DNA of 64,000 bases, from the NCBI RefSeq assembly GCF_045037415.1, contig NZ_CP173438.1; one strand, given 5' to 3'. Positions within the stretch are counted from its first letter, which is position 1. Each line of letters starts with the position of its first letter. The stretch is from Escherichia coli (GTDB lineage Bacteria > Pseudomonadota > Gammaproteobacteria > Enterobacterales > Enterobacteriaceae). Below are positions 11,235 through 11,329 of this stretch, piece by piece. A model generated the notes under the pieces. It ran no database searches. It was given only the letters and a program-made list of their open reading frames with translations, and was not told the DNA's origin. The translations under genes and the position numbers were made by a program.

Positions 11235-11329
11235 AGATGTTGTTCTGCCAATGTTATGCCGCTGCACCCTCAACTTACGTTATCCCAACTTGTGACTGTT
11301 ATTCGGCGCTCCACGGAGCGCCTTTTTTT
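11235..11329 (+). ncRNA. malH: malG 3' UTR, possible MalH-type 3'UTR-derived sRNA
   Basis: ~95 nt from malG stop to terminator hairpin ggcgctccacggagcgcc plus T-run; an sRNA processed from the malG 3' UTR is described in E. coli; identity here is inferred from position only. Confidence 0.3.
11305..11329 (+). terminator. rho-independent terminator after malG
   Basis: hairpin ggcgctc-cacg-gagcgcc followed by ttttttt; T-run overlaps the psiE stop codon on the other strand. Confidence 0.8.

What the first reader, a model, noticed from the sequence alone, without database searches (positions are those of the whole stretch)
11235..11327. xylE absent between malG and psiE
malG stop and psiE stop are 93 bp apart, occupied by one terminator hairpin. 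From memory, the ~1.5 kb xylose-proton symporter gene xylE lies between them in K-12. This is either a clean deletion or the ancestral state with xylE as an insertion in the K-12 lineage. The retained segment corresponds to the malG 3' UTR, so any sRNA derived from it would now abut psiE.
Basis: partly seen in the sequence, partly recalled or inferred. Interest (0 to 1): 0.35.

Follow-up and report, generated by a model that had tools for sequence, protein, structure and literature searches.

The report
Common xylE-free malG–psiE junction allele
This E. coli strain lacks the xylose transporter gene xylE that sits between malG and psiE in K-12, but this is a common, already published natural variant carried by about a third of sequenced E. 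coli, not a new event.

Summary
The malG stop ends at 11234 and the psiE stop begins at 11328. The 93 bp between them are the malG 3'UTR with one terminator hairpin (11305-11322) and a T7 tract (11323-11329) that runs into the psiE stop codon. K-12 carries an extra 1,797-bp xylE unit (promoter, gene, terminator) exactly here, bracketed by T-tracts.

The window is B2-like (arpA absent, yjaA present). The xylE-free junction occurs in 1,785 of 5,426 complete E. coli genomes, including IAI39 (F) and arpA+/yjaA- strains. It also occurs in four other Escherichia species. xylE is found in the complementary 3,639 genomes, so it has not moved elsewhere. Its absence from strain 042 is already published.

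The unit sits at the same site in Salmonella, the Citrobacter freundii complex and Klebsiella oxytoca, with divergence like the flanking genes. The common Salmonella allele is a scarred deletion of it. At least two E. coli genomes whose flanks match xylE-carrying strains, and one Citrobacter, have lost it without a scar.

So the window most likely carries an old, inherited, scarless deletion allele. Whether the E. coli ancestor itself had xylE is unresolved. The 104-nt MalH sRNA sequence is unchanged and now abuts psiE. This is ordinary and already known.

The parts
10344..11234 (+). malG coding sequence (296 aa), last gene of malEFG
   Evidence: ORF list. The annotation of the near-identical strain SK1144 is at the same coordinates. 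The protein equals WP_001252058.1, as in K-12.
11226..11329 (+). Sequence equivalent to the 104-nt MalH sRNA: the last malG codons, the stop codon, the 3'UTR and the terminator
   Evidence: MalH is defined as a 104-nt RNA that contains the end of malG, the stop codon and the Rho-independent terminator (PMC8081044). The exact window coordinates are my inference, counting 104 nt back from the end of the T-tract. The window is identical to K-12 over the last 169 bp before the junction. Fold. Expression was not tested.
11235..11327 (.). The 93-bp malG-psiE spacer (the finding)
   Evidence: It is identical to the K-12-type malG 3'UTR and contains no xylE remnant.
11305..11322 (+). Terminator stem-loop GGCGCTC-CACG-GAGCGCC
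   Evidence: The loop variant CACG is shared by xylE-plus and xylE-minus E. coli. Other Escherichia have TTCG or TACG.
11323..11329 (+). T7 tract of the malG/MalH terminator. Its last two bases are part of the psiE stop codon.
11325..11330 (.). Attachment point of the xylE unit. In xylE-carrying genomes, 1,797 bp lie here between a T7 and a T5 tract, so the end point is ambiguous within TTTTT.
   Evidence: Three-way junction alignment; sequences. The same junction string GCGCCTTTTTTTACT occurs in IAI39, CB7286, 19KM1803, HH97 and HH45.
11328..11738 (-). psiE coding sequence (136 aa), convergent with malG
   Evidence: The protein equals WP_000202902.1, as in K-12.

Best explanation
The window carries the xylE-free allele of an old presence/absence polymorphism at the malG-psiE junction. 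The strain inherited this allele; it is not a private deletion.

The alternative allele, as in K-12, holds a self-contained 1.8-kb xylE unit: its own promoter region, the gene and its own terminator. That unit is bracketed by the T-tracts of the malG and xylE terminators.

The unit occupies the same site in Salmonella, Citrobacter and Klebsiella oxytoca, with divergence like that of the flanking core genes. The common Salmonella allele is a scarred deletion of it. The unit is therefore older than the genus Escherichia.

The xylE-free allele here is then most likely, in the end, a scarless deletion between the two T-tracts. It arose long before this strain, at least before the radiation of its phylogroup and possibly before E. 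coli. The same reaction has recurred recently in other lineages.

Consequences:
- Shown: the window has no xylE, and the MalH sequence and its terminator are unchanged.
- Inferred: no low-affinity xylose/H+ symport, with uptake left to XylFGH, which lies outside the window.
- Speculative: psiE read-through would now be directly antisense to MalH, because the hairpin has no U-tract on the psiE strand.
For: Lineage-wide, not private:
- The contiguous junction occurs in 1,785 of 5,426 complete genomes and xylE in 3,639. A second junction query counts 1,786, and 1,786 + 3,639 = 5,425, all genomes with any match.
- It is present in IAI39, phylogroup F, and in two arpA+/yjaA- genomes.
- arpA is found in 4,114 genomes and xylE in 3,639, so roughly 450-475 arpA+ genomes should lack xylE, assuming arpA-negative genomes do not carry xylE.
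- Strain 042, phylogroup D (from memory), is published as lacking xylE (PMC2808357).
- The window is arpA-negative and yjaA-positive.
- E. albertii, E. whittamii and two unnamed Escherichia species have the same architecture.

The unit is ancient:
- It sits at the same site in eight C. freundii-complex species and in K. oxytoca and in Salmonella.
- xylE dS between genera is 0.85-1.30 and tracks malF and malG pair by pair.
- The common Salmonella allele keeps about 25 bp of the left end and 43 bp of the right end of the unit, including the xylE terminator hairpin.

Scarless loss is real:
- HH97 matches K-12 at every variable position over 1,005 bp to the left of the junction, and has no difference from K-12 until position 921 on the right. 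It lacks the +62 T shared by the D-like, F and B2-like xylE-free genomes compared, yet has the clean T7 junction.
- HH45 shows the same in a different background: 99.1% identical to the WCHEC035125 type and 98.6% to HH97.
- Citrobacter sp. FP75 is clean and xylE-free inside the otherwise xylE-carrying freundii complex.
Against: - Parsimony within Escherichia favours absence as ancestral. All four sampled sister species and the F, D-like and B2-like genomes lack xylE. Vertical descent therefore needs five or six independent scarless losses, or one loss plus long-lived polymorphism.
- Most recent loss events leave scars: 13 partial xylE segments in E. coli, the IS1-mediated deletion in PCN061 and the 388-bp scar in C. 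braakii.
- The K. oxytoca xylE has a GC3 of 0.57 against 0.73-0.755 for its flanks. This hints that the unit can also be gained with native flanks.
- González-Alba et al. read xylE as enriched in the B1/A sublineage (PMC6896753).
- E. fergusonii, E. marmotae and E. ruysiae were not among the loci returned, so their state is unknown.
- HH97 and HH45 could instead be recombination tracts of about 250 bp or less, and I could not check their assemblies.
Confidence: 0.65

Rival explanations
1. Primary absence. The Escherichia stem and the E. coli ancestor never carried xylE at this site, and the unit was inserted by horizontal transfer in the ancestor of the A/B1/E (K-12) clade. The window would then show the never-interrupted ancestral junction.
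For: - All four sister Escherichia species sampled lack it, with the same architecture, as do F, D-like and B2-like E. coli.
- 67 of 68 xylE-free species representatives show no remnant of the unit.
- The low GC3 of the K. oxytoca xylE suggests that gains with native flanks happen.
- A published ancestral reconstruction reports xylE as enriched in the B1/A sublineage.
Against: - The E. coli xylE is as diverged from the Salmonella and Citrobacter copies as the flanking genes are (dS 1.1-1.3). A donor would therefore have to be an unsampled lineage at Escherichia-like distance, carrying the unit at the same site.
- No donor-type flank is visible. The 93 bp to the left are identical in the two alleles, including an E. 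coli-specific loop base 12 bp from the junction. psiE dS is only 0.06.
- The scarred Salmonella allele shows the unit predates that genus's diversification.
Confidence: 0.25
2. Allelic replacement. An ancestor of this lineage had xylE and lost it by homologous recombination with DNA from an xylE-free relative, such as another Escherichia species.
For: The xylE-free allele needs only a short fragment to transfer. Recombination is frequent in E. coli. It would also leave a scarless junction.
Against: The spacer carries the E. coli-specific hairpin loop CACG, not the TTCG or TACG of the other Escherichia species. The flanks show ordinary within-E. coli divergence (malG dS 0.05, psiE 0.06). A donor within early E. 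coli cannot be excluded.
Confidence: 0.05
3. A recent deletion private to this strain, or an assembly artefact.
For: None beyond the bare absence of the gene.
Against: The identical junction is in 1,785 complete genomes. Of these, 1,142 are at least 99% identical to the window over the 2-kb query. SK1144 is 99.97% identical to the window over the 50 kb compared.
Confidence: 0.01

Closest known systems
E. coli K-12 malG-xylE-psiE locus (b4032-b4031-b4030)
   Same: malG, the 93-bp malG 3'UTR with terminator and T7 tract, and psiE are collinear. The spacer is base-identical.
   Different: K-12 has 1,797 extra bp between the T7 tract and the psiE stop: the xylE promoter region, xylE and its terminator ending in T5.
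xylE absence in enteroaggregative E. coli 042 (phylogroup D, from memory) (Chaudhuri et al. 2010, PMC2808357)
   Same: A natural E. coli lacking xylE. It metabolised xylose less well than MG1655 while keeping xylFGH.
   Different: It belongs to a different phylogroup. As far as I read it, the paper does not describe the junction, its distribution or its origin.
Common Salmonella enterica malG-psiE allele
   Same: malG and psiE are adjacent and convergent, with no xylE.
   Different: The gap is 165 bp with two hairpins. It keeps about 25 bp of the left end and 43 bp of the right end (the xylE terminator) of the unit, joined at the repeat GCTGATTTTAT/GCTGCTTTAT. This is a scarred deletion; the window has no scar.
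Citrobacter braakii ATCC 51113 junction
   Same: xylE has been lost at the same site.
   Different: A 388-bp gap made of four fragments of the unit, an eroded remnant.
MalH, the malG 3'UTR-derived Hfq-dependent sRNA (Iosub et al. 2020, PMC8081044)
   Same: The window sequence 11226-11329 is identical to the K-12 sequence from which the 104-nt MalH is processed.
   Different: Downstream context. In K-12 the terminator is followed by the xylE promoter region. Here it is followed by the end of psiE on the opposite strand. Expression here is untested.

Membership tests
xylE-free allele of the enterobacterial malG-psiE junction | malG and psiE are convergent and separated only by the malG 3'UTR and terminator | tested here: met
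xylE-free allele of the enterobacterial malG-psiE junction | No xylE homologue between the genes or elsewhere in the window | tested here: met
   tblastn with XylE finds nothing in the window. Genome counts are complementary. The rest of this strain's genome is not available.
xylE-free allele of the enterobacterial malG-psiE junction | The same junction sequence in independent genomes | tested here: met
   1,785 genomes. The string GCGCCTTTTTTTACT occurs in all seven xylE-free sequences compared, counting the window.
xylE-free allele of the enterobacterial malG-psiE junction | No remnant of the xylE unit (scarless) | tested here: met
   The window equals the K-12-type left flank up to T7 and the right flank from TTTTTA onward. 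Contrast the scars.
MalH sRNA | 104 nt covering the end of malG, the stop codon, the 3'UTR and the Rho-independent terminator | tested here: met
   The sequence is identical to K-12. Definition from PMC8081044.
MalH sRNA | Processed, Hfq-bound and pairs with ompC, ompA and MicA | not testable with these tools
   Needs RNA data. Rfam has no matching family.
Rho-independent terminator | G+C-rich stem-loop followed by a U-tract | tested here: met
   On the + strand: 7-bp stem, 6 G-C pairs, then T7.
Bidirectional terminator serving psiE as well | A U-tract after the hairpin on the opposite strand | tested here: not met
   On the - strand the hairpin is followed by GAAUAAC. No - strand terminator was called.
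Mobile element or genomic island (for the xylE unit) | Carries an integrase or transposase, or has terminal inverted repeats | tested here: not met
   The 1,797 bp are 276 bp upstream, the 1,476-bp xylE and 45 bp of terminator, so there is no room for mobility genes.
Mobile element or genomic island (for the xylE unit) | Target-site duplication | tested here: inconclusive
   T5-T8(A) direct repeats bracket the unit in E. coli and Citrobacter. These are the U-tract-encoding ends of two terminators, and the Salmonella right end has none.
E. coli phylogroup B2 (Clermont quadruplex) | arpA absent and yjaA present | tested here: met
   iclR 35300-36124 and aceK 36141-37865 are adjacent; yjaA lies at 42787-43170.
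E. coli phylogroup B2 (Clermont quadruplex) | chuA present; TspE4.C2 status | not testable with these tools
   Both loci lie outside the window.

The most novel reading that the evidence does not exclude
The malG-psiE junction could be a site where an accessory gene is made removable by its own terminator. On this reading, the T-tracts of two Rho-independent terminators act as short direct repeats that repeatedly excise the xylE unit without a scar. That would keep a trans-species presence/absence polymorphism alive.

The allele state might also matter for regulation. In xylE-free strains, psiE transcripts induced by phosphate starvation would read straight through a hairpin without a U-tract into antisense MalH and malG. 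This would couple phosphate starvation to porin and maltose control.
Probability: 0.12. Interest if true: 0.4.

Novelty: already known. Interest (0 to 1): 0.15.

Why it matters
It matters only modestly.

- K-12 gene order is not the species norm here. A third of complete E. coli genomes, including the B2-like lineage of this window, lack the low-affinity xylose/H+ symporter. This has been linked to poorer xylose use in strain 042.
- The locus is a clean worked example of a general caution. A scar-free junction shared with outgroups does not prove that a gene was never there, because deletion between terminator T-tracts leaves no trace and is seen to recur.
- The MalH sRNA keeps its sequence but has a different downstream neighbour in these strains. 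Anyone extending K-12 MalH or psiE results to pathogenic lineages should know this.

Tried and rejected
- **Rfam.** A scan of 10800-12300 at E<=1 found no family, so MalH has no model there.
- **Outgroup scan.** The single genome-contig scan kept only 80 of 189 psiE loci. It omitted E. coli itself, E. fergusonii, E. marmotae, E. ruysiae and Salmonella. Salmonella was recovered indirectly through the XylE cluster and exact-protein look-ups. E. fergusonii, E. marmotae and E. ruysiae were not recovered.
- **Closer XylE relatives.** The XylE homologue search found no closer non-coli cluster that could name a donor. The hits labelled E. coli at 90-95% identity differ in length from XylE (439-516 aa against 491) and look like length variants rather than divergent orthologues.
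- **GC3.** As a test of residence time it was inconclusive. xylE is below its flanks in every genus.
- **Recombination import for HH97 and HH45.** I considered import from D, F or B2 donors. It is rejected for long tracts, because the diagnostic SNPs at +50 and +62 are of the xylE-plus type. Tracts shorter than about 250 bp are not excluded.
- **Cross-tabulating xylE against phylogroup.** This was not possible with the tools for all 5,426 genomes. I used counts plus typed examples.
- **Other dead ends.** The first coordinate guess for IAI39 missed the locus. A literature search for xylE + psiE + malG together found nothing. H10's extra 58 bp lie beyond psiE, not at the junction.

Full report
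**What is in the window**

The window is an E. coli chromosome segment running plsB-ubiCA-malM-lamB-malK / malEFG / psiE-yjbHGFE-pgi-lysC ... metH-iclR-aceKAB-metA-yjaBA-rrn-purHD. malG is 10344-11234 (+) and psiE is 11328-11738 (-). Their stop codons are 93 bp apart.

The consensus scan finds one terminator in the spacer. The stem is 11305-11322 (GGCGCTC-CACG-GAGCGCC), followed by T7 at 11323-11329. The last two T's are part of the psiE stop codon (TTA on the + strand). On the psiE strand the same hairpin forms but is followed by GAAUAAC, not a U-tract. tblastn with XylE finds nothing in the 64 kb.

**The K-12 comparison**

So does strain WCHEC035125, which I used as the xylE-plus reference.

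The junction alignment shows two things (with sequences):
- The window equals the xylE-plus allele from malG through the whole 3'UTR, the hairpin and T7.
- It equals it again from TTTTTA into psiE.

The difference is a 1,797-bp block made of 276 bp of xylE upstream region, the 1,476-bp gene, and a 45-bp terminator ending in T5. The block is bracketed by T7 on the left and T5 on the right, so the end point is ambiguous within TTTTT. The block has no room for mobility genes.

**How common it is in E. coli**

- A 2-kb query across the junction is contiguous in 1,785 of 5,426 complete genomes and split at the junction in the rest.
- The xylE block is found in 3,639 genomes.
- A second junction query finds 1,786 contiguous genomes. 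1,786 + 3,639 = 5,425, which is every genome with any match. xylE-free genomes therefore do not carry xylE elsewhere.

The window itself lacks arpA (iclR and aceK are adjacent) and has yjaA. That is the B2 pattern for two of the four Clermont markers. It is 99.97% identical to strain SK1144 over the 50 kb compared.

Other typed examples:
- IAI39 (phylogroup F, assignment from memory) has the same 93-bp gap.
- Two arpA+/yjaA- genomes (D-like) have it too.
- arpA is found in 4,114 genomes and xylE in 3,639, so, assuming arpA-negative genomes do not carry xylE, roughly 450-475 arpA+ genomes lack xylE.
- K-12 and O157:H7 carry xylE, and an O104:H4 genome has the split junction expected of an xylE carrier.

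The literature already covers this. The 042 genome paper (phylogroup D, from memory) attributes poorer xylose use to the absence of xylE, with xylFGH retained (PMC2808357). González-Alba et al. list xylE among transport genes enriched in the B1/A sublineage (PMC6896753). The absence is therefore a known natural polymorphism.

**Outside E. coli**

A psiE-anchored scan of species-representative genomes returned 80 loci. In 68 of them malG and psiE are adjacent without xylE.

The 27 xylE-free spacers I listed mostly share one architecture:
- conserved 3'UTR blocks (GCCACTGC, CCTCAACTT, CTTGTGACTGTT);
- a G+C-rich hairpin;
- a T-tract that in most of them runs straight into the psiE stop codon (a few have extra bases in between).

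E. albertii, E. whittamii and two unnamed Escherichia species are in this group. One of the unnamed species is only dS 0.1 from E. coli. All E. coli alleles, with or without xylE, share the loop CACG, whereas the other Escherichia have TTCG or TACG.

The xylE block sits at exactly this site in several other lineages:
- eight Citrobacter freundii-complex species and Klebsiella oxytoca;
- some Salmonella enterica, found through the XylE cluster.

**Which state is older**

Four observations bear on this.

1. xylE divergence between genera (dS 0.85-1.30) matches malF and malG pair by pair. The copies are as old as the genera and were not recently exchanged.
2. The common Salmonella allele has a 165-bp gap. 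It consists of the malG 3'UTR and terminator, about 25 bp of the block's left end, and 43 bp of its right end with the xylE terminator hairpin. These are joined at the imperfect repeat GCTGATTTTAT/GCTGCTTTAT. It is a scarred deletion, so the Salmonella ancestor had the block.
3. C. braakii carries a 388-bp eroded remnant. Citrobacter sp. FP75 is cleanly xylE-free inside the otherwise xylE-carrying freundii complex.
4. A synthetic 'clean deletion in xylE-plus flanks' query picked out two genomes.
   - HH97 matches K-12 at every variable position over 1,005 bp to the left of the junction, and has no difference from K-12 until position 921 on the right. It lacks the +62 T shared by the D-like, F and B2-like xylE-free genomes compared, yet has the identical T7 junction.
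   - HH45 shows the same in a different xylE-plus-type background.

Scarless T-tract-to-T-tract loss, or at most a very short conversion tract, therefore recurs.

Taken together, the block predates Escherichia. The window's clean junction is most likely, in the end, a scarless deletion allele that the strain inherited.

**The counter-argument**

Parsimony within Escherichia favours absence as ancestral. All four sister species sampled lack xylE, as do F, D-like and B2-like E. coli. Most recent losses leave scars: 13 partial blocks and the IS1-mediated deletion in PCN061. The K. oxytoca xylE has an unadapted GC3, which hints at gain with native flanks.

I therefore leave about a quarter of the probability on 'the E. 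coli ancestor lacked it and the K-12 clade acquired it'. The states of E. fergusonii, E. marmotae and E. ruysiae would settle much of this, but I could not obtain them.

**Function**

- Shown: no xylE in the window. The 104-nt stretch that yields the MalH sRNA in K-12 is unchanged, including its terminator (PMC8081044).
- Inferred from established knowledge: loss of the low-affinity xylose/H+ symporter, with xylose uptake depending on XylFGH.
- Speculative: because the hairpin lacks a U-tract on the psiE strand, psiE read-through would be directly antisense to MalH and malG in this allele. In K-12 it would first cross 1.8 kb of antisense xylE.

**Verdict**

The feature is an ordinary, published strain polymorphism. 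The only mildly instructive point is that the deletion leaves no scar, so a clean junction shared with outgroups is not proof of ancestral absence.

Noticed in passing
window 13736-13738 (yjbH, 12278-14374, - strand): yjbH carries an in-frame amber stop at codon 213. Window position 13737 is T where SK1144 has C, changing TGG to TAG. The 698-aa exopolysaccharide gene is therefore split into ORFs of 212 and 433 aa in this strain only.
   Followed up: yes
window 36125-36140 and 42787-43170: arpA is absent (iclR and aceK are 16 bp apart) and yjaA is present. These two Clermont markers within the window point to phylogroup B2.
   Followed up: partly
L093 (HH97) 19613-20059, 26638-26919; L095 (HH45) 20566-20993, 27734-28045: The two genomes with xylE-plus-type flanks that lost xylE cleanly also both lack arpA, with the 3' end of aceK truncated, and have only a partial yjaA. 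They differ from each other by 1.4% in this region and come from the same Ontario study. Three shared losses in two backgrounds are unexplained; selection, recombination or an assembly issue are all possible.
   Followed up: partly
window 21870-27583: An L-sorbose operon (regulator, SDR oxidoreductase, PTS IIA-IID, sorE) lies between rluF and pepE. It is absent from K-12 and HH97, and present in WCHEC035125, IAI39 and the D-like genomes.
   Followed up: no
window 30546-31356: There are two small ORFs, one hypothetical and one annotated as frameshifted in SK1144, between yjbB and metH. K-12-type genomes have only a short intergenic gap there.
   Followed up: no
window 11739-11952 vs L094/L086: K-12-type genomes have extra sequence between psiE and the small periplasmic-protein gene, annotated as a 144-bp hypothetical ORF. 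The window, IAI39 and the D-like genomes lack it. It is a second indel that separates the two allele groups, about 500 bp from the junction.
   Followed up: partly
L038 (Citrobacter sedlakii) 4522-9427: xylE is present but about 4.9 kb from psiE, so something else has been inserted between them. malG was not within the locus.
   Followed up: no
L005, L037, L042, L068-L082 spacers: Enterobacter, Lelliottia and Klebsiella/Raoultella spacers are 190-320 bp because a repeat-like element of about 100-130 bp sits inside the malG 3'UTR, upstream of the conserved CTTGTGACTGTT block. It is not an xylE remnant.
   Followed up: partly
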